64,000 bases of DNA, taken from contig CAZHAR010000010.1 in assembly GCA_964530615.1 (NCBI GenBank), forward strand, positions 17,151 through 81,150, in the 5' to 3' direction. Below, one piece after another: positions 2,298 through 63,568 of this stretch. How positions within the stretch are numbered: position 1 is the stretch's first letter; each line of letters starts with the position of its first letter. The notes beneath the pieces are model-generated. The model saw only the letters and a program-made list of their open reading frames with translations. It ran no database searches and was not told the DNA's origin. A program made the position numbers and the translations under genes. Source of the DNA: an uncultured Planctomycetota bacterium (lineage in GTDB: Bacteria > Planctomycetota > JBBTDB01).

Positions 2298-2331
2298 AAA
2301 TTAAATTTTTTTAAATGAAAAAGAGAACGGA

Positions 2332-6687: not shown

Positions 6688-6882
6688 AAAACACTCTTTT
6701 CAATTTTTGTTACACTACTTCTCTTTCGAGCAAAATATCTTCATTTTTAGACGTTATGTTCATCTTAGTTATTTTTTGGATTCTGTTCAACTTCAAGAAA
6801 ATTTTTGATCTTTTTCTCCTTTCCGCTGGTTTATTTTTTTATTATTTTTTTATTACCATTTAGATTGAATCTCAAAGTATTT

Positions 6883-26546: not shown

Positions 26547-26647
26547 CCTTTTTACAAGTCGATCCTATCCTTTCGCCAGTATCCTCACGTCTGGCTACAA
26601 TTAACGCAACAAATCGTTTCCTCATTTTCTTGAGAATTTATAAACTT

Positions 26648-27811
26648 ATGCAAAAATCATTGTTTTTTCAAATGCTCCTGCTATTGATGCTCTCTGTTGT
26701 ATTGGCATTCGTCAATAATTTCCGCTCGGCAGTTTCCCTCGATTGGCTCCAATACTGGACCCCTATGTCTGAGTTAAAAAATAATAACCAGGTTGATCTA
26801 GAACTTGAAGAAATCAATGAATGGGAAGAGTTAGACGCAACAATGCTTCCCAATGAAATAGAAATGTTTTTACGATATAACGAGGGAAAAAGCTCCACAC
26901 TTATTGGTTCGAAAAAGGCCGCCAAAATACATGAATATGCTTTTGATAAAATTCTTTGGATCGATGCTCGCTCGCCTGAACTTTATGAAGAGGGACATAT
27001 TCAAGGAGCCACGCTGTTGCATTTTTATGAAAAACCTAAATATTTACCTGAAGTTCAACAAAAAATTCAAGAGAATCAACCGATATCTCTCCTCATTTAT
27101 TGCCGAGGTAAAGAGTGTACAGATTCTAAATTATTAGCAGAAGACTTCGAACGACTCGGATATCGAAACATTTTCATTTATAGCGGTGGCTATGATCAAT
27201 GGAAAAGAGAAGGATATCCCACCGAAGGAAATCCGAAAAATACGGCAAACTCAACGACCAATTCTTCGGAAAAACCGCCCGGAATGTATTTAGAGCATCT
27301 CGTTTTGGATTTGATTCCCTGTGCCTTCGGAATCCTTTTTGTGCTGGGTTGGAAAAAGATGAAAACAAACATGGGCCTCTGGATCGCGTCCCTCTTTGTG
27401 GGTCTTTTTTTCCTGTATGCCTCGGTTCCAAAAGTGCTAAATCCGCTTATCTTCGCGAAAAATATTTGGAACTATGATTTGATTCCGGGTCAATGGATCA
27501 ACGGAATGGCCCTTATTTTACCTATTTTGGAAGTCATTGCAGGGCTTTGTTTAATGACAGATTTTTTTCGGAAAGGCTCTAGCGGAACGATTAGCTTGCT
27601 TCTCATCGTTTATATGATCGCCGTAAGCACAAACATGATTCGCGGGCATGAATTTCAATGTGGCTGTTTCACAGAAACAACATGGATCACCCCCCTTTAC
27701 CTTGAAGGGTGGAACGACAAAATAACTTTGCTCTTACGGGATATAGCCTTATTGATTCTCTCATTATTCACTTTTTTTTATCCCTCAAAAAAATCGTTAC
27801 TCCAAGAGTAA
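26648..27811 (+). CDS. Rhodanese-domain protein fused to a MauE/DoxX-like four-helix membrane domain
   Basis: After a signal/TM segment, the rhodanese fold contains the active-site loop YCRGKECTD. The C-terminal half has four hydrophobic helices. The start is taken at the ATG at 26648; the track ORF begins at 26507. Confidence 0.6.
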   Translation: MQKSLFFQMLLLLMLSVVLAFVNNFRSAVSLDWLQYWTPMSELKNNNQVDLELEEINEWEELDATMLPNEIEMFLRYNEGKSSTLIGSKKAAKIHEYAFDKILWIDARSPELYEEGHIQGATLLHFYEKPKYLPEVQQKIQENQPISLLIYCRGKECTDSKLLAEDFERLGYRNIFIYSGGYDQWKREGYPTEGNPKNTANSTTNSSEKPPGMYLEHLVLDLIPCAFGILFVLGWKKMKTNMGLWIASLFVGLFFLYASVPKVLNPLIFAKNIWNYDLIPGQWINGMALILPILEVIAGLCLMTDFFRKGSSGTISLLLIVYMIAVSTNMIRGHEFQCGCFTETTWITPLYLEGWNDKITLLLRDIALLILSLFTFFYPSKKSLLQE

Positions 27812-38984: not shown

Positions 38985-40232
38985 TCACGCTGTAAACAGG
39001 GTCCCTTTGGACAAGCAATGGCTTAACTTACGATAAACATGTCGCAAATTTTCTCGCGAAAGGTCGTTATTAAGCGCCTTAATAATGCGAGTCGAGAGTG
39101 TGCCCTGATTAAAAATGATATCTAGGGCCGGTTTCCAGCGTTGTGCAAAACGATCCTGATCTTTTTGAAAAAGACGATCCGTGAGTTGTTTCCAAACGTC
39201 TCCGGCTGTACAAGATTTAGCAGAAGAAATTCCTAGAGTTTGTAAATAAGAAATATCGGAAATAACTGTATTTTCTGCGTCTTGAATACAAGCAAGGAAT
39301 AAAGGTTCAAGCGCTTCAACCGGCCAGGATTTTTGTTTTTCGTAAGAAATCCATTCTTCGCTAACGAGGGCTTTTAAGAGTTGAACAATCAGCGCCATAA
39401 TCGAGAGATCGGCGAGCGGGCACTCTTGAATATCTAAAATACGGATTTCAATTGCGTAGCGATCGAACCGGACAATGGCTCCACGAGAGTTGAGCCATTC
39501 GTAGCGGAGAAGTCCTTTCGGATCATAAGGTGCGATATCGTTCCAAATGCGGTGGAAAATTTTTTCTTCATACTCGCGACGAGTAAAGACTTGTTCCGGG
39601 ATAATTTTTCCGGCGATAGAAGGCACTTTAATCTGATTTTTTCGATAGATATCGAGCCGAGTATCCCGTTTCCCAGAGAGTTTTTCTTCCATGACAGGAG
39701 AACTTGCGGAAAGGGCAGGGAGAATCGGGAGAATGAGGCGAATAGCGGCATGAAGTCTTCCGAGTTCTTCATCATTAGCGAAGGGGAGATTTAAATGAGT
39801 ACTTTGAAGGTTAGAGAATCCATGATGTCGGCAATTGAAGATGCGGTCGTAGGTTTCATAAACTTCATTATAGCCATGGGGCCATAGTTGCATTTCTTTA
39901 GTGGGGTTCATCCATGGATGCATCCCGCTCCCCAGAAGTTGGCCATGTTTGGAGGATAAGATCTGATTAATTTCGGCAATACTCGTTTGAAATTTTTCGG
40001 GAAGTCCCTCTAATAGTGGCGAAGGGCCATTGGTTTTCAGTTCAATTAAGTGAAGAACAAGTTCATTAGACCAAGCGATAGGGCCACGTTCAACATCTTC
40101 GACAAATTCTCCGGCGATGCTATATAAAATCTGATCGGAAATGGGGAGAACCGAGAGGGTTTCATTATGGACAATCATGTATTCCATCTCGATTCCATAA
40201 CCTTCGAACAAGTGAAGGAATTGATCGCTCAT
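38985..40232 (-). CDS. GCS2-family carboxylate-amine ligase (YbdK-like glutamate-cysteine-ligase family 2)
   Basis: GIEMEYMIV corresponds to YbdK GIELEMQVV, GSGMHPW to GGGTHPF, and LILPILPALSASSPVMEEKLSGKRDTRLDIY to [30 protein letters not shown]. Confidence 0.8.
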   Translation of the reverse strand: MSDQFLHLFEGYGIEMEYMIVHNETLSVLPISDQILYSIAGEFVEDVERGPIAWSNELVLHLIELKTNGPSPLLEGLPEKFQTSIAEINQILSSKHGQLLGSGMHPWMNPTKEMQLWPHGYNEVYETYDRIFNCRHHGFSNLQSTHLNLPFANDEELGRLHAAIRLILPILPALSASSPVMEEKLSGKRDTRLDIYRKNQIKVPSIAGKIIPEQVFTRREYEEKIFHRIWNDIAPYDPKGLLRYEWLNSRGAIVRFDRYAIEIRILDIQECPLADLSIMALIVQLLKALVSEEWISYEKQKSWPVEALEPLFLACIQDAENTVISDISYLQTLGISSAKSCTAGDVWKQLTDRLFQKDQDRFAQRWKPALDIIFNQGTLSTRIIKALNNDLSRENLRHVYRKLSHCLSKGTLFTA

Positions 40233-40238
40233 AAAAAA

Positions 40239-41720
40239 TTACCTTCTTTTATTGCGTTTTCCCTCTTTCAATTTAATAATGCGATTCAGGAAAACTTCCA
40301 TAATACGATTGTATAAATTCTCTTTAGTGGCTAAATCTTCTACGTCCCCGTCAATATTAGGATTATCATTAATTTCAATCACATAAAATTTTCCGTTCAC
40401 TTCTTTTAAATCGACTCCATAAAGACCATCGCCGACGAGATTTGCGGCCTTTGTTGCCACAGAGATCAATTTTTTTGGAGCCTTTTCTATGGCGAATGTT
40501 TCGGCACCCCCATGGAATCCTTTTTCATTTTCTTGTTTGCTCCAGTTGAGAATCTGCCAATGTTCTTCGGCCATAAAATATTTGCAGACATAAAGAGGTT
40601 TTTGGTCAACGATTCCAACGCGCCAATCAAACGAAGTGGGCAAAAATTCTTGAATCAGAATCAAATCCGATTTTTGAAAGAGTCGATCTAATTCGCGGGC
40701 GAGTTGTTCTTCATTAACGACTTTCATGACTCCTAGCGAAAAGGAACTATCGGGTTGCTTAAGAATACAGGGGAATCCGATGGTTTCAGTGATAGTCGTC
40801 AATTCTGTTTTTTTGTGAATAATGAGGGTTTTGGGGGTTAGAATTTCATGTCGACTCATTAATTCGGCCAAATACACTTTATTTGAGCATTTGAGAATAG
40901 ATTCCGGATCATCCATAACAACGAGTCCTTCGGCTTCTGCGCGTTGTGCAAAGCGGAAGGTATGATGATTGACTTTGGTCGTTTCTCGAATAAAGAGTGC
41001 ATCGAATTCGGCCAAACGGCCGTAATCATCTTTACTAATAAATTCGGTAAACAGTTCCATTTTTTCCGCCGCTTTAATAAAGCGTTTCAAAGCGTCCGCA
41101 TCGGAAGGAGGGTGAGCCTCAGATTCATTCACTAAAATAGCTAAATCATAACGATAGGCCGCTCGTTTTTGACGACCGGAGCGCCGAAGAAAATATTCTT
41201 GAGCAAATTCAACGATATAGAGTCGGTGTTCTTCAGAAATTTCATCGGTTGGAATAGGGCCTATACTTTGTAAGTACCATTGTCCATCGAAAGCAAATTG
41301 AGCTCGTAGGAGAGGCGCTTCAAACTGATTAAAGAGTTGTAAGCTCAGACGATCGTATTTTTTCGCCATATTTTTCCCGAAATAAATACTGAGCGTAAAC
41401 TCTTTAGATTGAATAGGCGCTAAGATTTTTTGAATTAATTCATCCAGATCCTCGGAAACGATTCGAATAATAGCTTGAGATTTGAAGTCCTGGATTGTAG
41501 AAACACTGGGAATCGCACGATGTCCTCGCGCCGCGGCTAAAAGAGATACATAGTATCCTATGCTTTGATAACGATAAGAACGGCACAAATTAAAGACTTT
41601 TGCGCCTCGTATTTTGTGATATTCTGTATTAGTGATGTAACTTTTTGCCGCAACAATTTCAATTCCGTCCAACTTAAATGGCCATTCGGTAGGATTATCT
41701 ACAATAATGAGGGTCGGCAT
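40239..41720 (-). CDS. RimK-type ATP-grasp ligase with an N-terminal ~200 aa domain of unknown function
   Basis: The C-terminal ATP-grasp region reads ...GFPCILKQPDSSFSLGVMKVVNEEQLARELDRLFQKSDLILIQEFLPTSFDWRVGIVD...YGVDLKEVNGKFYVIEINDNPNID. The N-terminal domain resembles what I recall being described as the RimK-like ATP-grasp N-terminal (RLAN) domain; that recollection is from memory only. A 6-nt gap separates it from the GCS2 gene. Confidence 0.75.
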   Translation of the reverse strand: MPTLIIVDNPTEWPFKLDGIEIVAAKSYITNTEYHKIRGAKVFNLCRSYRYQSIGYYVSLLAAARGHRAIPSVSTIQDFKSQAIIRIVSEDLDELIQKILAPIQSKEFTLSIYFGKNMAKKYDRLSLQLFNQFEAPLLRAQFAFDGQWYLQSIGPIPTDEISEEHRLYIVEFAQEYFLRRSGRQKRAAYRYDLAILVNESEAHPPSDADALKRFIKAAEKMELFTEFISKDDYGRLAEFDALFIRETTKVNHHTFRFAQRAEAEGLVVMDDPESILKCSNKVYLAELMSRHEILTPKTLIIHKKTELTTITETIGFPCILKQPDSSFSLGVMKVVNEEQLARELDRLFQKSDLILIQEFLPTSFDWRVGIVDQKPLYVCKYFMAEEHWQILNWSKQENEKGFHGGAETFAIEKAPKKLISVATKAANLVGDGLYGVDLKEVNGKFYVIEINDNPNIDGDVEDLATKENLYNRIMEVFLNRIIKLKEGKRNKRR

Positions 41721-45397: not shown

Positions 45398-45865
45398 TTA
45401 CTTCGATTCGAATAAATTTCGTATCGTATCCACCCGTTTTCGATTGACTCCAAAATCACTGTAGCCCAAACGAGAAGACGCTCGAATCTGGATTTTCCCT
45501 TCTTCCAAATAAAACTCGGTATCATCAATAAAGCCTAATAACGAAGACCGTGTTTCGACACGAATATAGTTCTCTTTTTGCAAAAGAATCGTTGCGGTTG
45601 GAATTTGTTGAATACATTGAAGCAATTTTTGACGAGCGTTCGCGATTGGACCTTGAAAAGACAAGGGTTCCACTTTTTTTTCGGAAACCTCTGTTTGCGA
45701 AGAAACACAATTCGGACGATTGGGAAGCGGAGTGAATTTACCTTCTTGTACCCCAAGACTTGGTGCCGAACTCATGGCTTTGATACCATAACGGGCTCCA
45801 AAAAACCCAATGACAAGCAAAAGAATCGCAAAACCAAACCATTGCATTTTTTTTCTCTGCACCAT
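45398..45865 (-). CDS. Hypothetical membrane/exported protein (N-terminal TM anchor)
   Basis: 155 aa with N-terminal FGFAILLLVIGFFGA. No confident family assignment. Confidence 0.4.
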   Translation of the reverse strand: MVQRKKMQWFGFAILLLVIGFFGARYGIKAMSSAPSLGVQEGKFTPLPNRPNCVSSQTEVSEKKVEPLSFQGPIANARQKLLQCIQQIPTATILLQKENYIRVETRSSLLGFIDDTEFYLEEGKIQIRASSRLGYSDFGVNRKRVDTIRNLFESK

Positions 45866-45928: not shown

Positions 45929-46468
45929 TCATTTTAATTTTCCGATTTCTTCTAACAAGTGAGTCTCTGAAAATCCGCGAATTTTTTTATTATTAATTAA
46001 AATTACGGGAACTCCTCCGCCTCCCAATTTTTTAAACTGGGAGGAATATTCGGGTTGGGTCACATCATAATCCACAAACACAACACGGTGTTTTTTTAAG
46101 AAGGCTTTTGCTGATTGACAAGGGACTCAGGTTGGAGAGCTAAAAACGACCGCTTGTACCACTCGGTCGGTTGGAAAAAATTCCGCAAATTTTTGGGCAT
46201 CAATTTCACTGACTTCCGTATTAGAAGAGCGCGTCAGAAACACAATAAGCGCAGAAAAAATAAAAAAAGAAAGGACAAGCCAAGAAATTAAATGTCCTGA
46301 ATCTATTTTTTCGAAATTTGCGGGAGTTTTTTCGAGGAAGGGCTCGGGTACAGAATTAGGATTTTCTAAAGGATCTTGCCATTGATTTTCGTTGTCCATA
46401 AGATATCTCCTGAGCGTTTTTCTAGTATTTTGGGGAAGTAAATCCAACATGAACAATACGATGGCCAA
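45929..46468 (-). CDS. Membrane-anchored glutaredoxin/thioredoxin-fold protein interrupted by an in-frame TGA at the first Cys of the redox motif. It is either a candidate selenoprotein (UxxC) or a Cys-to-stop pseudogene.
   Basis: The track ORF at 46127-46468 ends ...VVQAVVFSSPT then TGA. Reading on gives VPCQSAKAFLKKHRV(C)FVDYDVTQPEYSSQFKKLGGGGVPVILINNKKIRGFSETHLLEEIGKLK and a stop at about 45929-45931. Together these form a complete glutaredoxin fold in which T-U-VPCQSAKAFL aligns with the Grx motif S-C-PYCQRAKALL. Whether the downstream part stays in frame depends on the length of an A-run/GT-run at about 46074-46090, which I could not count with certainty. The distance implied by the ORF-track coordinates is 195 nt (65 codons), which favours the in-frame reading. 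Confidence 0.5.
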
Positions 46469-47303
46469 TCCATTTTTTGATTCTGGGAAAACGAGTACTC
46501 CACCAAATCCATTTCCAACGGTGTGGATACAAATCGAACATATGCCATTCTTGAAATAATTGAATTCTTGGATCCCAGAGCGTCAGGTTTTGAGTGTTTC
46601 GTAAGCCCCATAAGAACTGAGGAATCGGCTTTTGCATTTTAGCAACACTCGGAACCCAATTGCTTCGCCCCACTGCTCCTGGACCAATCGCTTCAAAAAT
46701 TATTTCTCCTTGGGGAAAATACGAAAGAATCTGTTGGATAAGTTGCTGAACATCTGGCGGGGAAAGGTACATAAATAGCCCTTCCGCAATAATTAAAACG
46801 GGTGATTTGGGAACCGCGATTTTTTTTAGCCATGAAAAATCAAGTACCGATTGACCCATCCATCGATACCGCTCTGTTTCTTGAAAAAAATGATGTTTCA
46901 ATTGGATCACTTCGGGTTGATCGAGTTCATACCAGAGAATCTGTCCATTATCAAGACGCGAAAAACGGGTATCCAGTCCAGCGCCTAAGTTAATCACCGT
47001 AGATTGCGGATATTTTTGGAGAAAGGCCAGAGTTTGTTGATCAATCAGGTGCGTACGAATTGCAATAGAAAGTTGAGTGGCCCAGTCCTTTTGGAACTTG
47101 GAGAAATCGTAGTTAAGAGTTTCCAGCAACTCGACCGATTTAGGATCGCGGATGATGGGTTGAGGATGCTTGGTTTCTTTAGCACGTGCCCAAAGAGGAA
47201 TTAAAAGGGTTTCGGCAACTCCGGAAAGGATGGGGTCCACTGATATTACCGTAAGTTTAACTGTTGAGTTGATCTTTAATTTTCTCGAACGCTTCATCGA
47301 CAA
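46422..47303 (-). CDS. Class I SAM-dependent methyltransferase, TcmP/LCMT (leucine carboxyl methyltransferase)-like
   Basis: VINLGAGLDTRFSRL matches the conserved NLGAGxDTR motif of this family. Confidence 0.65.
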   Translation of the reverse strand: MSMKRSRKLKINSTVKLTVISVDPILSGVAETLLIPLWARAKETKHPQPIIRDPKSVELLETLNYDFSKFQKDWATQLSIAIRTHLIDQQTLAFLQKYPQSTVINLGAGLDTRFSRLDNGQILWYELDQPEVIQLKHHFFQETERYRWMGQSVLDFSWLKKIAVPKSPVLIIAEGLFMYLSPPDVQQLIQQILSYFPQGEIIFEAIGPGAVGRSNWVPSVAKMQKPIPQFLWGLRNTQNLTLWDPRIQLFQEWHMFDLYPHRWKWIWWSTRFPRIKKWIGHRIVHVGFTSPKY

Positions 47304-51611: not shown

Positions 51612-54035
51612 TTAGCGATTTGCTTCGTTATGGAGCAATTCATCTGGAAGAGGTTTGGGGAGTCTGGAAACCATTAAAATTGGGATTAAAAGAAATGCAG
51701 AACCAATAAAATAAGGCCATTGTGAGCCAAATCGCCAAAAAATAACAGAGGCTAGAATAGGGCCCAACACACGCCCCAACGCGCCAAGAGAACGAAAAAT
51801 TCCAATCGTTTTTCCTTGGTGTTCTGCCGGCGTGTAAATGGACACGAGTGAGGTAAGACAAGGAATCGTTAAGGAAGAACCCACCGCGAGAAAGAAAAGT
51901 CCAGAATAAAGGATCCAGTTGTTTCGAGTCAAAGCAATTAGAATTAATCCGGGAACCAACGTAATCAGTCCCATTAGAGCCATTTTTCGCTCTCCGACTT
52001 GCGCGGCTTTTCTTCGGACAATTCCGCCTTGAACAATCGCGATTAAAAAACCAATAAAGATAAACATAAAGCCATTCTGAAGCGAAGTGTAGTGGAGTCG
52101 CTCAAACGCAAGAAATGTCAACGTAAACTCCATTCCAGAAAAAGCGGTAATAAATAAAAAGTTGCTCAGGTTTGTTTGATTCACTCCTTTAAACGGGAAC
52201 GGTTTAAAAAGTTGAAGAGGATTAGCTTTTCGGTCACTTAATTGTTGGCCTCGTTTTTCAGGAGGGAGTGTTTCGTTAAATTTACGATAGATCCAGAAAA
52301 AATTAAAAAGCGATAACACAAGCGCAATGAGTGCAGGCATGGAAAATGGATTGACTCCATAGACTTCCCACCCGGGAAAATAACGCAACAAATTGATTTG
52401 TGATAGAATTCCTCCAAACGCGGGGCCGATGATGAATCCGAGTGCAAAGGCGATCCCAATAATAGCCATTCCACGCGATCTGCTTTCTCTGGGTGTGATA
52501 TCCGCGACCACCGCAGTCGCCGTAGAAATATTTCCACCCATGATTCCCCCAATAAAACGCGCCAAAATCAAGAGGGTGAAACTTCCTGAAAAAAACCAGA
52601 GTCCATAACTCGAGGCAAGTCCGACGAGAGAAATTAATAAAACCGGACGGCGTCCAATCTTATCCGAAAGGGCACCCCAAAAGGGCGCGGCCAAAAATTG
52701 TAAAAAAGAATAGATGGCTCCTAAAATTCCTCCAAAAAGTACAATATGCGCTAAATGATCCGCGCTCGTGTTCCCGGGCGTTCCTGTTAGCGAAACCACC
52801 GCATTCAGCATCGTTTTAAGAAAGAAATTTTGCGGATCTTTTTCCACATAATATTTTAAAAGCTCTGGAAATAAGGGAAAAATAATCGAAAATCCGACGA
52901 GGTCCAGAAACAAAGTTAAAAACATAATTTTCAAACATTGTTTAGCGGAATCGGATAACGGAGGCGATTGCATTTTGACTTCAGGCATAGTTGTTTTCTC
53001 GATAATAGGGGAATAAAACAATTCAGAACGCTTCAGAGGGCCTTCTATCACCCAAGAAGAAAGAAATTGAGCAAATCCCTTGACCCAGGAATCTTGATCG
53101 TTCAAGCAAGGAATAAGGTACAACGATCCGCCCTTCTCCTCAACTTGCCTAGATAATTCGTGTCCAAGCTCATCAAGAGTTTCCAGACAGTCCGTTACAA
53201 AACTTGGAGAGCAAATGGCAATTCCTTTTCCGCCCTGATCTAACAAGCGAAAAACCATCTCCTCTGTGTAGGGTGTCAACCACTCTTCCGAACCAAAACG
53301 AGACTGGAACGAAAGATGAATCTGATTGGAATTCAGAGATAAAATTCGGCTTCGTAAGAGATGAAACGTTTCATAGCACTGTTGAAAATAAGGATCTTGT
53401 TTCACCATCACTCGCCGCTTGGGAATTCCATGAAATGATACGACAAGATGATCTATCGTCTTTCCTTGCATTCGAAGTGTTTCAAGAAAATTCTCAATTT
53501 GCGCCACACTCTGATCAATGAAAAATTTAGAATGATAAAAAAAGGGTAAAAATTCAAATGCTGGAACAAGGGTTCGTCGTTTCGCTTCATGGAAAAATCG
53601 ATCCAACACCGAAAGGGTTGTACTTTCAGAATATTGAGGAAACAAAGGAATCACAAGCCAAAAATCTGCAGACGATCCGGAACGCTTCTGCTGTTCCCAT
53701 TGATCCCACAGTTCATTCAGTCGAGGCACCGATAATAAAAAAACGAGATCGACTTCGATTCCTGAGGGTGCCAGTTCTTGATGAAGTTTTTTTGCGAAGC
53801 TCTGGCTCAGTTCTACCAGCGGGAAGCCAGAACCGTTCCAAATACGACGATAAAGTCGGGCCGATCTTCTGGGTCGAAACGGAAGAACAAATAGGTTCAG
53901 AATGATTTTCCAGGCTATCGGAGAAAGATCAACAACACGAGGATCTCCTAAAAATTCCTTCAGATAGCGTCGAACCGCTGAAACCTCCGGAGATCGTGGA
54001 GAGCCTAATTGAACTAAAACAATCTTGATTTTCAC
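51612..54035 (-). CDS. hemH: Ferrochelatase (HemH) fused to a C-terminal 12-TM MFS transporter
   Basis: The N-terminal ~350 aa read LVQLGSPRSPEVSAVRRYLKEFLGDPRVVD..., VVSFHGIP and QSRFGSEEWLTPYTEE, which are ferrochelatase signatures. The C-terminal ~450 aa have 12 hydrophobic helices with MFS motifs (GALSDKIGRRPVLL). Confidence 0.75.
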   Translation of the reverse strand: MKIKIVLVQLGSPRSPEVSAVRRYLKEFLGDPRVVDLSPIAWKIILNLFVLPFRPRRSARLYRRIWNGSGFPLVELSQSFAKKLHQELAPSGIEVDLVFLLSVPRLNELWDQWEQQKRSGSSADFWLVIPLFPQYSESTTLSVLDRFFHEAKRRTLVPAFEFLPFFYHSKFFIDQSVAQIENFLETLRMQGKTIDHLVVSFHGIPKRRVMVKQDPYFQQCYETFHLLRSRILSLNSNQIHLSFQSRFGSEEWLTPYTEEMVFRLLDQGGKGIAICSPSFVTDCLETLDELGHELSRQVEEKGGSLYLIPCLNDQDSWVKGFAQFLSSWVIEGPLKRSELFYSPIIEKTTMPEVKMQSPPLSDSAKQCLKIMFLTLFLDLVGFSIIFPLFPELLKYYVEKDPQNFFLKTMLNAVVSLTGTPGNTSADHLAHIVLFGGILGAIYSFLQFLAAPFWGALSDKIGRRPVLLISLVGLASSYGLWFFSGSFTLLILARFIGGIMGGNISTATAVVADITPRESRSRGMAIIGIAFALGFIIGPAFGGILSQINLLRYFPGWEVYGVNPFSMPALIALVLSLFNFFWIYRKFNETLPPEKRGQQLSDRKANPLQLFKPFPFKGVNQTNLSNFLFITAFSGMEFTLTFLAFERLHYTSLQNGFMFIFIGFLIAIVQGGIVRRKAAQVGERKMALMGLITLVPGLILIALTRNNWILYSGLFFLAVGSSLTIPCLTSLVSIYTPAEHQGKTIGIFRSLGALGRVLGPILASVIFWRFGSQWPYFIGSAFLLIPILMVSRLPKPLPDELLHNEANR

Positions 54036-57052: not shown

Positions 57053-58855
57053 TTACCGATTGCTTTCTTGAAGCATTTTTTGGAAGGCCCCTAAAGAATC
57101 GGGTGCTAATTCTTTCAGGTCTAGAAAAAGGTACTCTGCGAAAAAATTATCTTTATTTTCACAGACGAGTTGAAATAGAAAGCGCTCCACTTCTTCTTTT
57201 TTCTTCTTTAACGAAGATAAGTGGGGCGCTTTTAAGAGTGCCGCATTTGTGACACCCCACATTTTTATTAGACAAACCACTTTTTCCTCTGGTAAAGAAA
57301 ATTGCTCTAGTTTCTTTTGCTCCTGATCAAGAATGTCCCATGTTTTTACAAGGAATTGGGTATCAGAAATATCCTGAGGAATGTTTATTTTGTTTTGATG
57401 AGTCTTTCGATACATCCAGATCTGACTGAACAGAAGCAAACAGAGGAGCAAGATAAAATTCGCGCCCAACAGAAGTTGTGGATTTCGCTTGATCCATTTC
57501 AGAATTTTTTCTAGCCAACCCGAAGGCTTTGCTTTAATCGGGTATCCTTGTAAAAACAAATCTAAATCTTCCGCAAAATGACCCGCGGAGCGATAACGCT
57601 TATGTCTCAATTTCTCCATCGCTTTGAGCGTAATCGTATCCAGATCGCGATGGATTTCAGGATTTATACGAGAAGGTAAACGGGCTTCTTCCTTAAAAAT
57701 TTTTTCATATAAAAGCGCGTCTGTTTCCGCTCGAAATGGGCGCATTCCTGTCAAAACTTCATATAAACACACCCCCATAGAATACACATCGCTTTTGGCG
57801 TCTAGTTTGTCAATTTCTCCACTCACCTGTTCAGGCGGCATATAAGCGGTAGTTCCCAAAATATAACCGCTTTTCGTAAGATTTTGAGATTTTTGATTCT
57901 GATCCTTAGCCAATCCAAAATCGGTGAGTTTGGGGATGCCTTCTTTGGTAATTAAAATATTGTCTGGCTTGATATCTCGATGAATAACGCCTTCGGTATG
58001 CGCATAATGTAAAGCCTCAAGACTCTGTTGAATGACGCGAACACGGTCCCGAATCGGATGTTTTTCTTTGAGCCAATCCGCAAGTGTTTTCCCCCCTTCA
58101 ATAAATTCCATTACAAAATAATGTTCTTGCCCTTTTTGCCCGGAGTCAAAAACACGAATAATATGAGGGTGTTGTAACCGCGCGGTTGCTTGAATTTCAC
58201 GGAAAAATCGCTGGAGCGAATCTTCGGAAGCGTCACTCCCTTTCAAGAGAACCTTCAATGCAAAAGTTTGATTGAGTCCCGGATGATAGGCTCGATAAAC
58301 AATGCCCATTCCCCCACGAGCAATTTCTTCCAGAATGTTATAGTTCCCATAAATACGGTCGTCTTGTTGATATTCAATATAAAATTCCGGACGTTCTTGA
58401 GCCGAACGAATACGATAGAAATTTTGATTTTCTCCGGCGTAGGTCCAATTTCCTTGCTCCAATTCCAAAAATTCGTCAATCGTGATTTTTTTCTGTTGAA
58501 GTAAACTTTGAAGAAGAGTGCGCGCGCTTACCTTGCCTCGTGGTAAGCTATTGACCAAGTTATTGAGTTCTCCAACAGAGACTTTAGTATCTAAGAGCAA
58601 TTTTAATCCTATTTTTTCGAGCGCTTCCATTTCGGAAAGAGTCTCCGAAATTTTTTCAAGATTCAATTCGCTTGAAGCGCTCTCTTTTTCTACATGAGAA
58701 AGGGCTCGATAGGTATTCCCTAAATAGCTATAGTAGTCTTCTGAGCTAATTCCCTTAGCCTGCAGTTCTTCAGTTATTTTTTTAAAATCATCGTCCATAG
58801 TTTTTTTTCGAAACTTTAAAGAACTCGAAATTCGTTTATTGAGAACCTCGTTCAT
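57053..58855 (-). CDS. Hanks-type Ser/Thr protein kinase with a C-terminal TM helix and extracytoplasmic tail
   Basis: GRGGMGIVYRA (Gly loop), ALK (Lys), HRDIKPDNIL (catalytic loop), DFG and APE motifs are present. A TM helix LLLGANFILLLCLLLF follows. Confidence 0.85.
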   Translation of the reverse strand: MNEVLNKRISSSLKFRKKTMDDDFKKITEELQAKGISSEDYYSYLGNTYRALSHVEKESASSELNLEKISETLSEMEALEKIGLKLLLDTKVSVGELNNLVNSLPRGKVSARTLLQSLLQQKKITIDEFLELEQGNWTYAGENQNFYRIRSAQERPEFYIEYQQDDRIYGNYNILEEIARGGMGIVYRAYHPGLNQTFALKVLLKGSDASEDSLQRFFREIQATARLQHPHIIRVFDSGQKGQEHYFVMEFIEGGKTLADWLKEKHPIRDRVRVIQQSLEALHYAHTEGVIHRDIKPDNILITKEGIPKLTDFGLAKDQNQKSQNLTKSGYILGTTAYMPPEQVSGEIDKLDAKSDVYSMGVCLYEVLTGMRPFRAETDALLYEKIFKEEARLPSRINPEIHRDLDTITLKAMEKLRHKRYRSAGHFAEDLDLFLQGYPIKAKPSGWLEKILKWIKRNPQLLLGANFILLLCLLLFSQIWMYRKTHQNKINIPQDISDTQFLVKTWDILDQEQKKLEQFSLPEEKVVCLIKMWGVTNAALLKAPHLSSLKKKKEEVERFLFQLVCENKDNFFAEYLFLDLKELAPDSLGAFQKMLQESNR

Positions 58856-58951
58856 TTTCTCAAGAATGGATTATAAAAGAATGACAACAGATAAACAACG
58901 TTGTGAGGCTCTTCCCTAAGAAGCTTTTTTTTTTTAAAGTAGGAAGTTGTC

Positions 58952-60331
58952 TTGTTTCAAAGGGGGAACTCCATGACAACTGAACAAACACCGCTCCATG
59001 AAGAATCTTGTGCACAAGAAACCTTAGTGAACGAAAGCACTCCCATCATAGATTCAGTCTCTAACATTCTTCAAAATGGAATGTGTGTTGGAGATCAACT
59101 ACAATATCAAATTCAAGGACGAATCGGAAAAGGGGGAATGGGAAGTGTTTTTCTCGCGCTGAATAAGCAAACGCAAGAACAAGTAGCCATTAAATTTGTT
59201 CGTTTTTCGAGTAAGGCCTCCCCAGAATTAATGACGATTTTTCGACAAAGATTTGAACGAGAAATTGAAATTCTCTCTCGAATTGACCATCCGAACATCA
59301 TCAAAATTTTGGGTTCTGGTGTACACGCTTATAAAAATGTTACCCTTCCTTATTTTTGTATGGAGTATGTTCGAGGAGAAGCATTAGATCGCTTGCGTTC
59401 AAAAGGTTCTTTGTCTATTTCGGCGATTTTAGAAATGATTATTGCCTTATCTAACGCGCTAGCACTGATCCACCAGAAAAAAATTGTGCATCGAGATATC
59501 AAACCCGCGAACATTTTTATTACTGAATCTGGAGTTCCTAAACTCATTGATTTCGGATTAGCAAAAGTTTATGAAGAAACGGAAGACGGGAGTTCTCGAC
59601 TGACATTTTCTCAAATGATTTTAGGAACCTTCGAATTTATGGCTCCAGAACAGGGAACGAATCCGAAAGAGGTTCATCCGCAAAGTGACATTTATTCGTT
59701 AGGACACGTTCTTTACTGGCTCCTCACTGGAAAACTGGCGGTCGATACCAGTCTTTTAAGGCAATGTCTAGAAGAACGAGATTTTTCTCGTTTATTCAAG
59801 GAGTTATCGTCTCAATTAACCCGGCAAAATCTACAGTTTGACCACTTTATTGATACTGAACTACGAAATATTTGTCAAAAAGCGTTACATCTTAATCTCC
59901 AAGAACGATACGCCACAGCTAAAGATTTCGGAGACGCACTTCGCTCTTATCAATCTCACTTAACACAAAAAGAGCAATGGGAGCATCATTTTCTCTTTCC
60001 GACCTCGCAATCTCGTCCTCAGGTTCCAATTTCTATTGATATGGCAGGTTGGTTCGAAGCCCAGTTGGAACACGTCGCTCTCAAAAATGAAAATCCCTCA
60101 AGCGAAGAAGCGAATTGGGCCGAATTTGTTCCTTTTGGGAACTCTTGCCTTTTGGAAGCGAAAAAAACGATTCAGGTCAACCAACAACTCTTGAATCCCG
60201 GAGACAGTATTTATTTGCAAGACGGAGACTTTATCCAAATTCACTCCAGCACTTTTATTTATAAAAAAGCGCCAGAGGATCACTATTTTATGAATAAAAA
60301 AGAAGACGACGATCCTCCAAAAAAAATATAG
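58952..60331 (+). CDS. Hanks-type Ser/Thr protein kinase (soluble, with an unassigned C-terminal ~120 aa domain)
   Basis: GKGGMGSVF, AIK, HRDIKPANIF, DFG and APE motifs are present. Confidence 0.85.
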   Translation: MFQRGNSMTTEQTPLHEESCAQETLVNESTPIIDSVSNILQNGMCVGDQLQYQIQGRIGKGGMGSVFLALNKQTQEQVAIKFVRFSSKASPELMTIFRQRFEREIEILSRIDHPNIIKILGSGVHAYKNVTLPYFCMEYVRGEALDRLRSKGSLSISAILEMIIALSNALALIHQKKIVHRDIKPANIFITESGVPKLIDFGLAKVYEETEDGSSRLTFSQMILGTFEFMAPEQGTNPKEVHPQSDIYSLGHVLYWLLTGKLAVDTSLLRQCLEERDFSRLFKELSSQLTRQNLQFDHFIDTELRNICQKALHLNLQERYATAKDFGDALRSYQSHLTQKEQWEHHFLFPTSQSRPQVPISIDMAGWFEAQLEHVALKNENPSSEEANWAEFVPFGNSCLLEAKKTIQVNQQLLNPGDSIYLQDGDFIQIHSSTFIYKKAPEDHYFMNKKEDDDPPKKI

Positions 60332-60340
60332 GAGTTTCAG

Positions 60341-63300
60341 ATGGAAGTCCATAAACTGGTTCTGGAAGCCTATCGCAGAAAGTTTCTTTCAAAGGAACAA
60401 CTGACAGAAATTCAACAATTCAAGTCAAAAAATCCGTCTCCCGAAGCACTTTCTGAAATGATTTTTCAGCGCGGATTCCTTTCAAAAGAACAATGGACAC
60501 AATTACAACCCACCCCGCGTTCAACGGCAATTCAAGTGATTGTGGATACCCAAAATACACCTCAAATGCTTGCACCTAAAGAACTTCAAGAATGTCTGGA
60601 ACTATTTTCGGGGGGAACCAACCCCCATTCTTCCCTTTTAAACACACTCTTCGCCAATCGCTATCAAATCAAATCGCTGTTAGGAGAAGGAGGAATGGGG
60701 ACGGTCTATGGAGTAGACGATCAAAAATTACAGCGTGAGGTTGCTTTAAAACTCATTAAATTCGGACATCAAACCCCAGAAGCTCAAAAACGCTTCTTCA
60801 AGGAAGCTCGCGCCATTGCGAAGATGGAACATCCGAACATTATTCGAATTTATGAAGTCGATGAAGATCCGCAACCTTATTTCACGATGGAATATGTTCG
60901 AGGAGAAACTCTTTCTAGCGCACTCCAGAAAAAAGGGGCTCCCTTTTCCTCAAAAGAATCCGCTCAACTCACAAAAAAATTGGCGCAAGCACTCGCTTAT
61001 ATCCACCAGAAAAATATATTTCATCTCGATATTAAGCCCTCCAATGTGTTACTCACAGAGTCCAGAGAACCCAAACTCATGGATTTTGGATTGGCTCAAG
61101 AAACCGAACATAAACTCTCAAAGATTAGCCGAATCGCGGGAACTCCGTCTTATATTTCTCCAGAGCAAGTCTTGGGAGTCGCCTCTCAAATTAACGCACG
61201 AACGGATATTTATCTATTGGGAGGAACGCTCTACGAAATGTTGACAGGAAAGCCTCCCTTTAGTGGGACGAGCGCGAATCATATTTATTATCAAGTGCTT
61301 TCTTCGGAACCCATACGTCCGAGGCAACGCTCTCCGCAGATTCATCCTGATTTGGAGGCCATTTGTTTAAAAGCGCTCGAAAAAGAACAACTTCAGCGTT
61401 ATGCTTCCGCGAACGAATTGGCTCAAGATCTGGACCATTTTTTAGAGCATCGTCCTGTAATAGCAGTACTTCCGAACCGCTGGATTTATCTAAAAAAATG
61501 GATCGGGCGCAACAAATCGATATCGATGCTGATCCTCTGTTTTCTAGTACTCTCGTTTTCCTTAGGGGGCTATTTTCAATGGCGACACTATCAAACTCTG
61601 CAGAAGCAATATTATTCGGCGCTACAGAGAGCCACTGAAGCGCTGGAAAAAACGCAATCGTTTCAAGAGACTACGGATTTAACGCAACAGCTTCAATCTC
61701 TATTTCGAGCCTTAAACGCAGTAAATGAAGCCTTACAAATTAAGCCATTTTATCGATCCGCCGAAGAGAAGAAATGGCAAATCGCGGAACAATTCTTAGC
61801 GATCTGTCTGAAAACTCAAAATTATGATACTGCGGAATATATTGCCAACGAAATACAATCCTTACAATTTTTATCCGATCTTACAAAATCCGAACTCCAG
61901 AAAAATGTGGATCTCGCAAAAACGCAACAATTACGTGAACATCAACAATCTCTAGAGATCTGGGTGGATCGTCTTCAAGAGAAATCAGGAAACACGCTCA
62001 TTCGAGCCGGGGATCGGGAAGAATTTATTTTTGAAGTTTCCCAGATGAAGGAAAAAGAAATTTTACAACGGTTATTATCACTTCTAGAAGAAGGAAAAAT
62101 TTATTTTTTACAATCGAAGCGAACGGTGTTACAAGATTATTTTTTTCTCGATTTGGTTCAAGTCTTGGGACGATTAGGAAATACTCAAGCGTCTGAGCCT
62201 CTGCGTAAGGTTCTGGATATTTCATATCAAACACTTTTAAAGGACTCCTCAAAAAATAAGGATATCAATTATATCCAATGGATGTCTTCTTTAACAAAAG
62301 CGCTCTGTCAATTGAAAGACGTGGATTCTGCGGTTCTCATTCAAACGATTCGTCATAACCCTGAAATGAATACCCTGTTTAATTCCAATCTCCATCTCCA
62401 TCTCTATTCCTACCACAAAATTTTGAGTGCTTTAATTCATCGACCCGCTCAATCCGTAAAAGAGCGTCATACACGAGGAGTTGCTCGGCTAGATTATGGA
62501 GATTTAGAGGGTGCGATTGCCGATTTTTCTCAAGAGATCCAAGAGATCCAAGAATATTCAAATCGTGCGGATGCTTATTGTAATCGTGGTTTAGCGTGGA
62601 TGAGAAAATCAGAGTGGGCGCAAGCGAACAACGATTTTACGGAGGCTATTCGACTCCAGCCAAAATTCTTTGGGGCGTATAACAATCGAGGACTCGTACG
62701 CTTGGAAACTGAGGATTTTCAAGGAGCGATTGCCGATTTTTCGGAAGTGATCGTGCTGGACGCTCACTTTAGTCCGGGATTCAATAACCGAGGATTAGCC
62801 AAATTTAAAAGTCAGGATTTTCAAGGAGCGATTGCCGATTATACGCAAGCGATTCTCTTCAATGATCATTATTTGGAAGCGTATCTCCAGCGAGGAATTT
62901 CCCGTTTTATTTTAAAACAATATAAGGAAGCGATCGAGGACTATACGACAGCCCTCAATCTTAGCCCCAATAATGCGAATGTTTACTATAATCGGGGAAA
63001 TGTAAAAGATGAGTTTCAAGATTGGGAAGGCGCGATTCAAGACTATACGATAGCTATTCATTTAGATTCAAATCAGGTCAAGGCCTATTTAAATCTGGCC
63101 ATATTAAAAGAAAAACGAAACGATTGGCTCGGAGCGATTCGGGACTATACGGAAGCGATCCGTATCAAACCACAGGCCCTGTTTTACTATAACCGTGCTT
63201 GTTGTCAATTCGCGCTGGGAAACCTCGACGAGGCTCTGAACGATACTACGGAAGCGATTTATTTGAATCCTCAGTATGGGGAAGCCTATTTAAATCGTGG

Positions 63301-63568
63301 ATTGTTGCGTCGCGACAAGGGCGATTTTGCTGGAATGATTGCGGATTGGGAGTACGGATTATCGCTTCAATCCAATCCGGAAGTAGCGAACGAGTTGGTC
63401 ACTTTGCTGTTGCGTCAAGCGAAAGTCCAGATTCTGAAAAAAGAGTACGAATCTGCAAGGGACAGCCTGATTCGCGCCCAAAAATATCTGTCGCCAGACG
63501 ATCCAAGGCGACCTTCACTGGAACAGAAATGTCAAGAATTAACGCAACAGTTATTAAAGAAGGACTAG
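60341..63568 (+). CDS. Ser/Thr protein kinase with a TM helix and a large C-terminal TPR-repeat domain (at least 10 TPRs)
   Basis: The kinase motifs are GEGGMGTVY, ALK, HLDIKPSNVL, DFG and PE. A TM helix ISMLILCFLVLSFSLGGYF follows. The C-terminal repeats (...AYCNRGLAWMRKSEW..., ...AYNNRGLVRLETEDFQGAIADFSE..., and so on) fit the TPR consensus. A 9-nt gap separates it from the upstream kinase gene. Confidence 0.85.
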   Translation: MEVHKLVLEAYRRKFLSKEQLTEIQQFKSKNPSPEALSEMIFQRGFLSKEQWTQLQPTPRSTAIQVIVDTQNTPQMLAPKELQECLELFSGGTNPHSSLLNTLFANRYQIKSLLGEGGMGTVYGVDDQKLQREVALKLIKFGHQTPEAQKRFFKEARAIAKMEHPNIIRIYEVDEDPQPYFTMEYVRGETLSSALQKKGAPFSSKESAQLTKKLAQALAYIHQKNIFHLDIKPSNVLLTESREPKLMDFGLAQETEHKLSKISRIAGTPSYISPEQVLGVASQINARTDIYLLGGTLYEMLTGKPPFSGTSANHIYYQVLSSEPIRPRQRSPQIHPDLEAICLKALEKEQLQRYASANELAQDLDHFLEHRPVIAVLPNRWIYLKKWIGRNKSISMLILCFLVLSFSLGGYFQWRHYQTLQKQYYSALQRATEALEKTQSFQETTDLTQQLQSLFRALNAVNEALQIKPFYRSAEEKKWQIAEQFLAICLKTQNYDTAEYIANEIQSLQFLSDLTKSELQKNVDLAKTQQLREHQQSLEIWVDRLQEKSGNTLIRAGDREEFIFEVSQMKEKEILQRLLSLLEEGKIYFLQSKRTVLQDYFFLDLVQVLGRLGNTQASEPLRKVLDISYQTLLKDSSKNKDINYIQWMSSLTKALCQLKDVDSAVLIQTIRHNPEMNTLFNSNLHLHLYSYHKILSALIHRPAQSVKERHTRGVARLDYGDLEGAIADFSQEIQEIQEYSNRADAYCNRGLAWMRKSEWAQANNDFTEAIRLQPKFFGAYNNRGLVRLETEDFQGAIADFSEVIVLDAHFSPGFNNRGLAKFKSQDFQGAIADYTQAILFNDHYLEAYLQRGISRFILKQYKEAIEDYTTALNLSPNNANVYYNRGNVKDEFQDWEGAIQDYTIAIHLDSNQVKAYLNLAILKEKRNDWLGAIRDYTEAIRIKPQALFYYNRACCQFALGNLDEALNDTTEAIYLNPQYGEAYLNRGLLRRDKGDFAGMIADWEYGLSLQSNPEVANELVTLLLRQAKVQILKKEYESARDSLIRAQKYLSPDDPRRPSLEQKCQELTQQLLKKD

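What the first reader, a model, noticed from the sequence alone, without database searches (positions are those of the whole stretch)
45929..46468. Glutaredoxin-fold membrane protein with an in-frame TGA exactly at the first cysteine of the CxxC redox motif (UxxC): selenoprotein candidate or fresh pseudogene
The track ORF at 46127-46468 encodes an N-terminal TM anchor followed by beta-strand 1 of a thioredoxin fold (VVQAVVFSSPT) and then stops at TGA. The codons immediately after the TGA read VPCQSAKAFLKK..., and further on ...FVDYDVTQPEY...GGGGVPVILINNKKIRGFSETHLLEEIGKLK. Together these are the remainder of a glutaredoxin. The alpha-1 helix AKAFL aligns with AKALL, the cis-Pro loop is VPVILI, and the C-terminal helix is present. 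The TGA aligns with the first Cys of CPYC, giving U-V-P-C. TGA in that position of a thiol-oxidoreductase is the classic signature of a bacterial selenoprotein.

The alternative reading is a TGT/TGC to TGA point mutation that makes a pseudogene. The downstream part has no start codon of its own, so it is not an independent gene.

Caveat on frame: I could not count the A-run/GT-run at about 46074-46090 unambiguously. One reading puts the C-terminal half 1 nt out of frame. The 195-nt distance implied by the ORF-track coordinates puts it in frame. No SelA, SelB, SelD or tRNA-Sec genes are in this window, and I could not identify a convincing SECIS-like hairpin within ~40 nt downstream of the UGA.
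Basis: seen in the sequence. Interest (0 to 1): 0.7.

Follow-up and report, generated by a model that had tools for sequence, protein, structure and literature searches.

The report
Membrane-anchored glutaredoxin-like selenoprotein candidate
A small membrane-anchored redox protein gene has a "stop" codon (TGA) exactly where its catalytic cysteine should be; three diverged bacteria keep that TGA and still conserve the protein after it, so it almost certainly encodes selenocysteine. This is a real but fairly ordinary new member of a known class, and public databases annotate it wrongly as two fragments.

Summary
On the minus strand, one gene (ATG 46399 to stop 45929-45931, 156 codons) encodes an acidic N-tail, one transmembrane helix and a glutaredoxin-fold domain (Pfam PF00462, E 9e-12). 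Codon 91 is TGA (46127-46129). It is in frame and aligns with the first Cys of CxxC, giving U-V-P-C.

It is not a fresh pseudogene:
- Two other lineages (L005 and L013, 54-64% identical over the N-terminal part) carry the same TGA (U-G-P-C).
- The 37-65 codons after it have dN/dS 0.10-0.15 at dS of at least 1.
- Independent assemblies of the same organism confirm the base.
- TGA is an ordinary stop here (12 of 49 genes).
- All 12 aligned Cys-containing homologues have Cys in that column.

Gaps remain. No hairpin fits the bacterial SECIS consensus. The only conserved one (46076-46093, loop CGUGUU) is 39 nt from the UGA, is weak (about -3 kcal/mol) and shows no covariation. There is no selA, selB, selD or tRNA-Sec in the window, and the rest of the MAG could not be reached.

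Verdict: a genuine selenoprotein candidate (confidence about 0.8) and a new member of the known UxxC thioredoxin-fold selenoproteins. It belongs to a very rare family in which every known member has TGA. Interest is moderate.

The parts
45929..46399 (-). Complete gene: 156 sense codons including one in-frame TGA (codon 91), plus a terminal TGA stop at 45929-45931. It encodes a single-pass membrane protein with a glutaredoxin-fold domain.
   Evidence: translation; Pfam; orthologues start at the same ATG; purifying selection over the whole length.
46407..46410 (-). GGAG Shine-Dalgarno-like motif 7 nt upstream of ATG 46399. GGAG is also present upstream of the ATG in L005 and L013.
   Evidence: read from the sequence.
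46232..46294 (-). Transmembrane helix (about residues 36-56, HLISWLVLSFFIFSALIVFLT), preceded by a 35-residue acidic tail (net charge -6). Topology is not resolved by flanking charges.
   Evidence: Kyte-Doolittle 19-residue maximum of 2.66-2.85 in all three orthologues; the next best segment is below 1.0.
46127..46129 (-). In-frame TGA (codon 91), the proposed selenocysteine codon. It occupies the position of the first, nucleophilic Cys of the CxxC motif (U-V-P-C; C94 is at 46118-46120).
   Evidence: same codon in three lineages; Cys in this column in PDB glutaredoxins and in 12 of 12 homologues; same base in independent assemblies.
45932..46150 (-). Glutaredoxin-fold domain (residues 84-156): beta-1 VVFSS, U-x-P-C at the start of helix 1, VVFVDYDV, KKLGGGGVPVILI (cis-Pro loop), KKIRGF, and the C-terminal helix.
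   Evidence: PF00462, residues 84-139; TIGR02196 and TIGR02194 below cutoff; alignment to 7c10_A residues 4-75.
46076..46093 (-). The only conserved hairpin after the UGA: AAACAC / CGUGUU / GUGUUU, with 39 nt between the UGA and the loop. It is a weak candidate for a SelB-binding element and is not established.
   Evidence: It is present in all three lineages (5-6 bp) with G at loop position 2, at -3.2 kcal/mol, with no covariation. About 10% of random UGA sites in the window have an equal or better hairpin. Six invariant codons (KKHRVV) cover it, P about 0.06.
45929..46081 (-). The 50-aa ORF starting at an in-frame GTG that gene callers annotate separately. It is an artefact of stopping at the Sec codon, not an independent gene.
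   Evidence: Codons 92-106, between the TGA and this GTG, are conserved at the protein level, and there is no SD-like motif upstream.
46422..47303 (-). Upstream neighbour, an LCM-family SAM-dependent methyltransferase. Its adjacency to the Grx gene is conserved in L005 and L013.
45398..45865 (-). Downstream neighbour on the same strand, a DUF1499 protein (63-nt gap).

Best explanation
The gene at 45929-46399 (minus strand) encodes a 156-residue single-pass membrane protein whose glutaredoxin-fold domain carries a U-x-P-C redox centre.

Proposed mechanism:
- Codon 91 (UGA, 46127-46129) is recoded co-translationally to selenocysteine by SelB with Sec-tRNA(Sec). An mRNA element downstream of the UGA presumably directs this; the conserved weak hairpin at 46076-46093 is the only candidate.
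- Translation then continues to the genuine UGA stop at 45929-45931.
- Sec91 takes the place of the N-terminal, nucleophilic Cys. It would attack substrate disulfides or mixed disulfides and be resolved by Cys94 through a selenenylsulfide. The protein would thus be a membrane-tethered thiol-disulfide oxidoreductase.
- Its Cys homologues carry N-terminal signal peptides or anchors, so the domain may face the periplasm.

Shown: the in-frame conserved UGA, translation past it (selection), the Grx fold, and Cys in homologues. Inferred: Sec as the inserted residue, the SECIS identity, the topology, and the substrate and reductant.
For: 1. The two halves are in frame, and the Pfam Glutaredoxin match spans the TGA.
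2. Two further lineages carry TGA at the same codon. The sequence that follows is conserved: L005 ...LFSSPT*GPCKSAKNLLKKHRVVFADYD..., and L013 ...VFGSPT*GPCQSAKAFLKKHRVVFVDYD...EEIGKLK with a TAA stop. The neighbouring LCM methyltransferase is also conserved.
3. dN/dS after the TGA is 0.15, 0.10 and not defined for the third pair (dS saturated, dN 0.11). Before the TGA it is 0.24-0.28, with dS 0.95-1.3.
4. The TGA is present in independent assemblies that are 99.93-100% identical.
5. The organism uses the standard code: 12 of 49 genes end in TGA, including this one.
6. All 12 aligned Cys homologues have Cys in the U column, and they share the KQLGGGGVP motif. PDB glutaredoxins align their first Cys there.
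7. Sec-containing PF00462 glutaredoxins with UxxC are an established bacterial selenoprotein family (PMC13188914, PMC1088965, PMC1794560). Some Planctomycetes have complete Sec machinery (PMC4807772).
Against: [quoted passage not shown] With spacings of 10-45 nt scanned, the search returned only one conserved candidate, at 39 nt. Its own energy is -3.2 kcal/mol.
- Folding energies of the 55-65 nt after the UGA are no better than shuffles (z -1.7 to +1.3). No compensatory changes were seen.
- There is no Rfam hit.
- The 64-kb window has no selA, selB, selD or tRNA-Sec and no second selenoprotein candidate. The rest of the genome could not be examined.
- Only three lineages exist, so the power to test RNA structure is low.
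Confidence: 0.8

Rival explanations
1. Recent pseudogene: a TGT/TGC-to-TGA point mutation (or a sequencing error) inactivated a Cys-glutaredoxin gene, and the downstream part is decaying.
For: The public annotation treats the locus as a 90-aa hypothetical protein plus a 50-aa ORF. No SECIS or Sec machinery was seen.
Against: The same TGA occurs in three lineages with dS of at least 1. dN/dS downstream is 0.10-0.15, lower than upstream. There are no further stops or frameshifts in 65 codons. Independent assemblies agree. No orthologue with Cys at this codon exists among 1.84 billion representative proteins.
Confidence: 0.02
2. SECIS-independent read-through or other recoding of UGA91 that inserts a standard amino acid (near-cognate Trp or Cys, or a suppressor tRNA). 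This would give a full-length protein without selenium, possibly at low efficiency as a regulatory device.
For: There is no canonical SECIS and the candidate hairpin is weak. Sec machinery was not demonstrated. UGA is the leakiest stop codon (general knowledge).
Against: The UGA sits exactly at the catalytic nucleophile, where all 12 aligned homologues have Cys. Trp there would destroy the redox centre, yet the resolving Cys and the whole domain are under strong purifying selection. Keeping UGA rather than UGU/UGC across dS of at least 1 makes sense if it encodes something Cys codons cannot. No natural precedent is known to me for a conserved non-Sec UGA at a CxxC cysteine in a bacterium using the standard code.
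Confidence: 0.1
3. A split gene giving two separately translated products: a 90-residue membrane peptide ending at the TGA, and a 50-residue peptide started at GTG 46081.
For: Gene callers predict exactly these two ORFs in all three lineages. The GTG codon is invariant.
Against: Codons 92-106, between the TGA and the GTG (xPCxSAKxxLKKHRV), are conserved at the protein level with synonymous changes. There is no SD-like sequence before the GTG. Neither fragment could form a thioredoxin fold: the first has only beta-1, and the second lacks beta-1 and the active-site helix (alignment).
Confidence: 0.03

Closest known systems
Sec-containing glutaredoxins (PF00462, UxxC), e.g. Clostridium oremlandii Grx (PDB 4TR0/4TR1 family; Kim et al. 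2011) and Geobacter sulfurreducens WP_010943784.1
   Same: Same Pfam family. Sec replaces the first Cys of CxxC. The SECIS would lie inside the coding region (PMC13188914, PMC1794560).
   Different: The known ones are small soluble cytoplasmic proteins with a canonical bSECIS. This one has a 35-residue acidic tail plus a transmembrane helix, a G/V-P dipeptide between U and C (thioredoxin/TlpA-like rather than P-Y/P-F), and the KQLGGGGVP motif. No consensus SECIS was found. Sequence similarity to 4tr0 is marginal (E 0.028).
NrdH / YruB-type glutaredoxin-like proteins (TIGR02194, TIGR02196)
   Same: These are the best NCBIfam matches (49.2 and 37.1 bits). Length and fold are similar, and an R-G-F motif sits where classical Grx has G-G-x-D-D (motif comparison from my own knowledge).
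   Different: Scores are far below the curated cutoffs (88.6 and 85.8). The NrdH signature motifs CVQC and WSGFRP are absent. The known proteins have no membrane anchor and no Sec.
Unnamed group of Cys-containing, signal-peptide/anchor-bearing glutaredoxin-family proteins with the KQLGGGGVP motif (P0006-P0022; e.g. 'glutaredoxin family protein [Undibacterium sp.]', some with DUF4124)
   Same: Same architecture: N-terminal hydrophobic segment, linker (Y-F-P), and a Grx domain with xQLGGGGVP and RGF. These are the closest homologues found (E 3e-13 to 1e-5).
   Different: They have Cys, not TGA, and only 25-38% identity. Their N-termini are classical positively charged signal peptides or anchors without the acidic tail. 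Their gene neighbourhoods are not shared.
Membrane-anchored periplasmic thioredoxin-like reductants (TlpA, ResA, CcmG) and the predicted exported selenoproteins 'DsbA-like' and 'thiol:disulfide interchange protein' (UxxC)
   Same: An N-terminal anchor plus a thioredoxin-fold domain. The x-P-C centre matches TlpA, whose motif is CVPC (from memory). Sec versions of exported thiol-disulfide oxidoreductases are already listed among bacterial selenoproteins (PMC13188914).
   Different: Those proteins have the longer thioredoxin/PF08534/PF13098 fold with extra elements. This one is a minimal Grx fold (PF00462). The periplasmic location here is only inferred.
Uxx-star glutaredoxin-like selenoproteins (NCBIfam NF041212/NF041211)
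   Same: A Grx-like fold with Sec; weak matches of 26.6 and 22.6 bits.
   Different: Scores are below the cutoffs (66 and 100). This protein has no Uxx-stop ending: after the Sec codon the chain continues for 65 residues to ...EEIGKLK.

Membership tests
Bacterial selenoprotein (UGA decoded as Sec) | In-frame UGA conserved among orthologues, with coding conservation on both sides | tested here: met
   Three lineages carry TGA at the same codon. dN/dS downstream is 0.10-0.15.
Bacterial selenoprotein (UGA decoded as Sec) | UGA aligns with Cys in homologues (Sec/Cys pair), at a redox-active site | tested here: met
   12 of 12 Cys homologues have C in that column, followed by xxC. PDB glutaredoxins agree.
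Bacterial selenoprotein (UGA decoded as Sec) | [quoted passage not shown] | tested here: not met
   No candidate has spacing of 16-37 nt in the window or L005. The conserved hairpin has 39-nt spacing at -3.2 kcal/mol. L013's whole 55 nt folds at only -4.0. No covariation was seen. The review notes that a subset of real bSECIS elements also fail this model.
Bacterial selenoprotein (UGA decoded as Sec) | selA, selB, selC (tRNA-Sec) and selD in the same genome | not testable with these tools
   None in the 64-kb window. The 114.8-kb NCBI contig and the rest of the MAG were not retrievable; only short ENA contigs were served. The genome-contig scan did not contain this organism.
Bacterial selenoprotein (UGA decoded as Sec) | Selenium physically present in the protein | not testable with these tools
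   Needs 75Se labelling or mass spectrometry.
Glutaredoxin family (Pfam PF00462) | Profile match above the gathering threshold | tested here: met
   45.4 bits against 22.9, E 9.1e-12, residues 84-139, profile positions 2-59 of 60 (U read as C).
Glutaredoxin family (Pfam PF00462) | CxxC/UxxC after beta-1 at the N-terminus of helix 1, and a cis-Pro loop before beta-3 | tested here: met
   The alignment to 7c10_A puts TCVPC on TCPHC and GGVPVI on AVPVI.
Glutaredoxin family (Pfam PF00462) | Glutathione dependence (classical GSH-binding motifs such as TVP and GG-x-DD) | tested here: inconclusive
   The sequence has GVP and RGF-S-E instead of GGxDD. The best NCBIfam matches are YruB and NrdH types, below cutoff. 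The motif definitions come from my own knowledge. The reductant is unknown.
NrdH / YruB glutaredoxin-like (TIGR02194 / TIGR02196) | Score at or above the curated NCBIfam cutoff | tested here: not met
   37.1 against 85.75, and 49.2 against 88.55.
Uxx-star Grx-like selenoproteins (NF041212 / NF041211) | Score at or above the curated cutoff | tested here: not met
   26.6 against 66, and 22.6 against 100. Separately, the protein does not end in Uxx-stop: 65 residues follow the U.

The most novel reading that the evidence does not exclude
The UGA is decoded as Sec (or otherwise recoded) by a signal that is not the consensus bacterial SECIS. That signal could be the minimal A-U-rich hairpin 39 nt away or something not yet recognised. 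It would operate in a lineage annotated as Planctomycetota, for a family that exists only in the Sec form and whose redox domain is membrane-anchored and possibly extracytoplasmic. That would make it a handle on non-canonical bacterial Sec insertion and an exported Grx-type selenoprotein.
Probability: 0.2. Interest if true: 0.65.

Novelty: new member of a known kind. Interest (0 to 1): 0.42.

Why it matters
If it is a selenoprotein, three points follow:
- It adds a membrane-anchored, Sec-only subfamily to the known UxxC thioredoxin-fold selenoproteins.
- It shows Sec use in a groundwater MAG lineage.
- It is a concrete case of database mis-annotation: MEK7483688.1 is truncated at Sec, and a spurious 50-aa ORF follows.

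The poor fit to the bSECIS consensus makes this a useful test case for SECIS-dependent prediction tools. It does not open a new question: Sec-containing glutaredoxins and other UxxC oxidoreductases have been catalogued since 2005.

Tried and rejected
- **Locus and contig scans.** The genome-contig scan with the read-through protein found only distant CxxC glutaredoxins (L001-L004); the source organism is not in that collection. Two metagenome-contig scans found nothing, then one unrelated small Grx (L008, CPFC).
- **Profile search.** A profile search of 1.84 billion representatives with the N-terminal half returned only P0002, so no Cys orthologue with this N-terminus is known.
- **Rfam.** Gathering and permissive scans gave no SECIS or other credible family.
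- **RNA folding.** RNAalifold on regions from -40 to +120 showed no covarying structure near the UGA.
- **Other selenoprotein genes.** A screen of the window for same-frame ORF pairs split by TGA gave only adjacent genes, opposite-strand shadows, or junk extensions such as the one after the 158-aa ORF at 22968-23444.
- **Walking out of the window.** The look-up of encoding contigs returned only 3-7 kb ENA contigs.
- **Neighbourhoods of Cys homologues.** P0006, P0016 and P0021 share no conserved partner genes, so no functional inference was possible.
- **Strong hairpin at 46021-46046.** I considered it as a distal SECIS and rejected it. It is 83-111 nt from the UGA, its loop is AAA, and its register differs in L013.

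Full report
**Observation**

Reading window 45929-46468 on the minus strand in one frame gives LAIVLF...VVQAVVFSSPT*VPCQSAKAFLKKHRVVFVDYDVTQPEYSSQFKKLGGGGVPVILINNKKIRGFSETHLLEEIGKLK*.

With that codon read as Cys, Pfam Glutaredoxin (PF00462) matches residues 84-139 across the TGA, with E 9.1e-12 and 45.4 bits against a gathering score of 22.9. Solved glutaredoxins such as 7c10_A (E 2e-5) align nearly end to end, with their CPHC/CPYC first Cys on the TGA and their cis-Pro loop on GGVPVI.

**Gene limits**

The gene starts at ATG 46399, not at the TTG 46468 of the mechanical ORF. Three observations support this:
- A GGAG lies 7 nt upstream of the ATG.
- The N-terminus M-D/E-N-x-x-Q-W is shared by the orthologues.
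- The extra 23 codons of the TTG ORF lie inside the preceding methyltransferase gene.

The product would be 156 residues: a 35-residue acidic tail (net charge -6), one transmembrane helix (residues 37-55, Kyte-Doolittle 2.66), a linker, and the Grx domain with U91-V-P-C94.

**Not an error and not a pseudogene**

The 90-residue truncated product is in GenBank as MEK7483688.1 ('MAG: hypothetical protein AABZ60_05060 [Planctomycetota bacterium]'). Two independent Hainich groundwater assemblies (L006 and L007) are 99.93% and 100% identical to the window and carry the same TGA.

Two diverged orthologues were found.
- L005 is a 534-bp contig of GCA_040960315.1 (74% nucleotide identity). It reads ...VVLFSSPT*GPCKSAKNLLKKHRVVFADYDINKPEYASKFKQLGGGGI and then ends with the contig.
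- L013 is a 1776-bp Logan contig from SRR33012322. It holds the whole gene...AVVFGSPT*GPCQSAKAFLKKHRVVFVDYDINHPEYAEKFKQLGGGGIPVILINNKKIRGFRESELLEEIGKLK, with a TAA stop. It has the same upstream neighbours, a 117-aa protein and an LCM methyltransferase.

Nei-Gojobori estimates show the selection pattern.

| Region | dN/dS | Notes |
|---|---|---|
| After the TGA | 0.15, 0.10 | third pair undefined: dS saturated, dN 0.11 |
| Before the TGA | 0.24-0.28 | dS 0.95-1.3 |

The region after the TGA has therefore been translated in frame throughout a divergence at which synonymous sites are about saturated. The TGA itself has been kept all that time.

The organism uses the standard code. Of 49 confident genes, 29 end in TAA, 12 in TGA and 8 in TAG, and this gene's own terminator is TGA.

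The split-gene alternative (a 90-aa peptide plus a 50-aa ORF from GTG 46081, as gene callers predict) does not hold. It fails to explain the protein-level conservation of codons 92-106. Neither piece could fold as a thioredoxin fold.

**Sec/Cys pairing and family**

A profile of the three orthologues retrieved 20 or so Cys-containing relatives (E 3e-13 to about 1e-3). Typical lengths are 110-170 residues. Most have an N-terminal signal peptide or anchor, and some carry DUF4124. They share a distinctive xQLGGGGVP...RGF signature. In the alignment, all 12 examined have Cys in the column of the TGA, followed by xxC (CAFC, CGYC, CPYC, CGVC, CPHC, CGPC).

The family defined by the specific N-terminal region is tiny. 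A HMMER search of 1.84 billion cluster representatives returned only P0002, and no orthologue with Cys at codon 91 was found.

NCBIfam places the domain nearest to the YruB (49.2 bits) and NrdH (37.1 bits) glutaredoxin-like proteins. It is weakly similar to the Uxx-star Grx-like selenoproteins (26.6 bits). All of these scores are far below the curated cutoffs. It is therefore a PF00462 member outside every named subfamily.

**The recoding signal**

This is the weak point. The consensus bacterial SECIS, as quoted in PMC13188914, has four features:
- a 4-16 bp upper stem;
- 16-37 nt between the UGA and the loop;
- MFE of -7.5 kcal/mol or lower.

A scan implementing these rules found no candidate at 16-37 nt spacing in the window or in L005. 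The only hairpin present in all three lineages is AAACAC/CGUGUU/GUGUUU (46076-46093). Its properties are:
- The loop has G at position 2, followed by U.
- The stem is 6 bp, or 5 bp in L013.
- The spacing is 39 nt.
- The hairpin energy is only -3.2 kcal/mol.
- No covariation was seen.
- About 10% of all 2,363 UGA triplets in the window have an equal or better hairpin.

The six codons that form the hairpin (KKHRVV) are invariant at the nucleotide level in all three lineages, but a run of that length has a permutation P of only about 0.06. Folding of the 55-65 nt after the UGA is no more stable than shuffled controls. Rfam gives nothing.

I therefore report the hairpin as a candidate only. The review notes that a subset of predicted bSECIS elements fall outside the consensus.

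**Sec machinery**

ARAGORN finds no tRNA in the window. Pfam scans of 48 ORFs show no SelA, SelB or SelD. A screen for other TGA-interrupted genes found none that was credible.

The rest of the MAG could not be reached. The look-ups served only short ENA contigs, and the organism is not in the genome collection. The literature shows that complete Sec machinery and selenoproteins occur in some Planctomycetes, such as Gemmata, Isosphaera and two Porphyra-associated genomes (PMC4807772). The trait is therefore plausible for the phylum named in the record, but it is untested for this organism.

**Mechanism proposed**

1. SelB-dependent insertion of Sec at UGA91. This is inferred from the conserved UGA at the nucleophilic Cys position; Sec itself has not been shown.
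2. Termination at UGA157.
3. A single-pass membrane protein whose Grx domain uses a selenolate nucleophile (U91) resolved by C94.

The G/V-P dipeptide resembles the thioredoxin motif (CGPC) and the TlpA motif (CVPC, from memory) rather than classical Grx. RGF in place of GGxDD resembles NrdH-type proteins. The reductant may therefore not be glutathione; this is an inference.

Topology is ambiguous from the flanking charges. The Cys homologues look exported, which suggests a periplasm-facing domain; this too is an inference.

The gene lies in a same-strand cluster:
- a 117-aa protein;
- an LCM methyltransferase;
- the Sec-Grx gene;
- DUF1499;
- a hypothetical protein;
- a DegP-like protease;
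- a beta-CASP metallo-beta-lactamase (MBL) hydrolase;
- a RimK-like ATP-grasp protein;
- a GCS2 glutamate-cysteine ligase.

Only the adjacency of the 117-aa protein, the methyltransferase and the Grx gene is confirmed in another lineage. Neighbourhoods of the Cys homologues are unrelated.

**Comparison with what is known, and novelty**

Sec-containing glutaredoxins with UxxC (PF00462) have been known since 2005-2006. They were found in the Sargasso Sea data, Geobacter sulfurreducens, Alkaliphilus and Moorella, and the Clostridium oremlandii enzyme has been characterised experimentally (PMC1088965, PMC1794560, PMC13188914). Exported UxxC thioredoxin-fold selenoproteins (DsbA-like, thiol:disulfide interchange protein) are also catalogued.

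This gene is a new member of that kind. It is distinguished by its membrane anchor, by belonging to a different Grx subfamily (the KQLGGGGVP type), by being known only in the Sec form, and by lacking a consensus SECIS.

**Scores**

| Explanation | Confidence |
|---|---|
| Selenoprotein | about 0.8 |
| Non-Sec read-through | about 0.1 |
| Split gene | about 0.03 |
| Pseudogene | about 0.02 |

Interest is moderate (0.42).

Noticed in passing
window 46021-46046 (-): A strong hairpin lies inside the Grx ORF, 83-111 nt after the Sec-UGA: CCUCCCAGUUU/AAA/AAAUUGGGAGG, -17.2 kcal/mol, z -3.2. L013 has a hairpin at the same place in a register shifted by 3 nt (-12.5 kcal/mol), and L005 has only a weak one (-5.5). 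Pyrimidine-rich codons pair with the four GGN glycine codons. It is not SECIS-like (loop AAA, too distant) and its function, if any, is unknown.
   Followed up: partly
window 45929-46399 (-); GenBank MEK7483688.1: Public annotation splits the gene into a 90-aa 'hypothetical protein' (AABZ60_05060) and a separate 50-aa GTG-started ORF. The same split is made by gene callers on all related contigs (L006, L007, L013).
   Followed up: yes
window 51612-54035 (-): An 807-aa ORF fuses a complete ferrochelatase domain (PF00762, residues 5-324) to a Major Facilitator Superfamily transporter (PF07690, residues 371-675). This is an unusual haem-synthesis/transporter fusion.
   Followed up: no
window 38985-41720 (-): A GCS2-family glutamate-cysteine ligase sits next to a RimK-like ATP-grasp ligase with an RLAN domain. 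Both are in the same-strand gene cluster as the Sec-Grx gene and may synthesise a gamma-glutamyl thiol or peptide.
   Followed up: no
window 6805-9258 (+): An 817-aa Suv3-type DEXQ-box RNA helicase with SUV3_C domains. This family is best known from mitochondria, yet here it occurs in a bacterial MAG.
   Followed up: no
window 26507-27811 (+): A 434-aa protein combines a rhodanese domain with a MauE-type membrane domain. Rhodanese-related proteins can be selenoproteins, but this one shows no in-frame TGA.
   Followed up: partly
window 57053-63568 and L009 4727-7400: A run of at least five eukaryote-type Ser/Thr protein kinase genes, one of which has a long TPR array. The run continues beyond the window end.
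   Followed up: no
window 1-2300 (-): A ClpC/ClpB-type AAA+ chaperone gene runs off the start of the window. It is not listed by the ORF tool because it is cut by the window edge.
   Followed up: no
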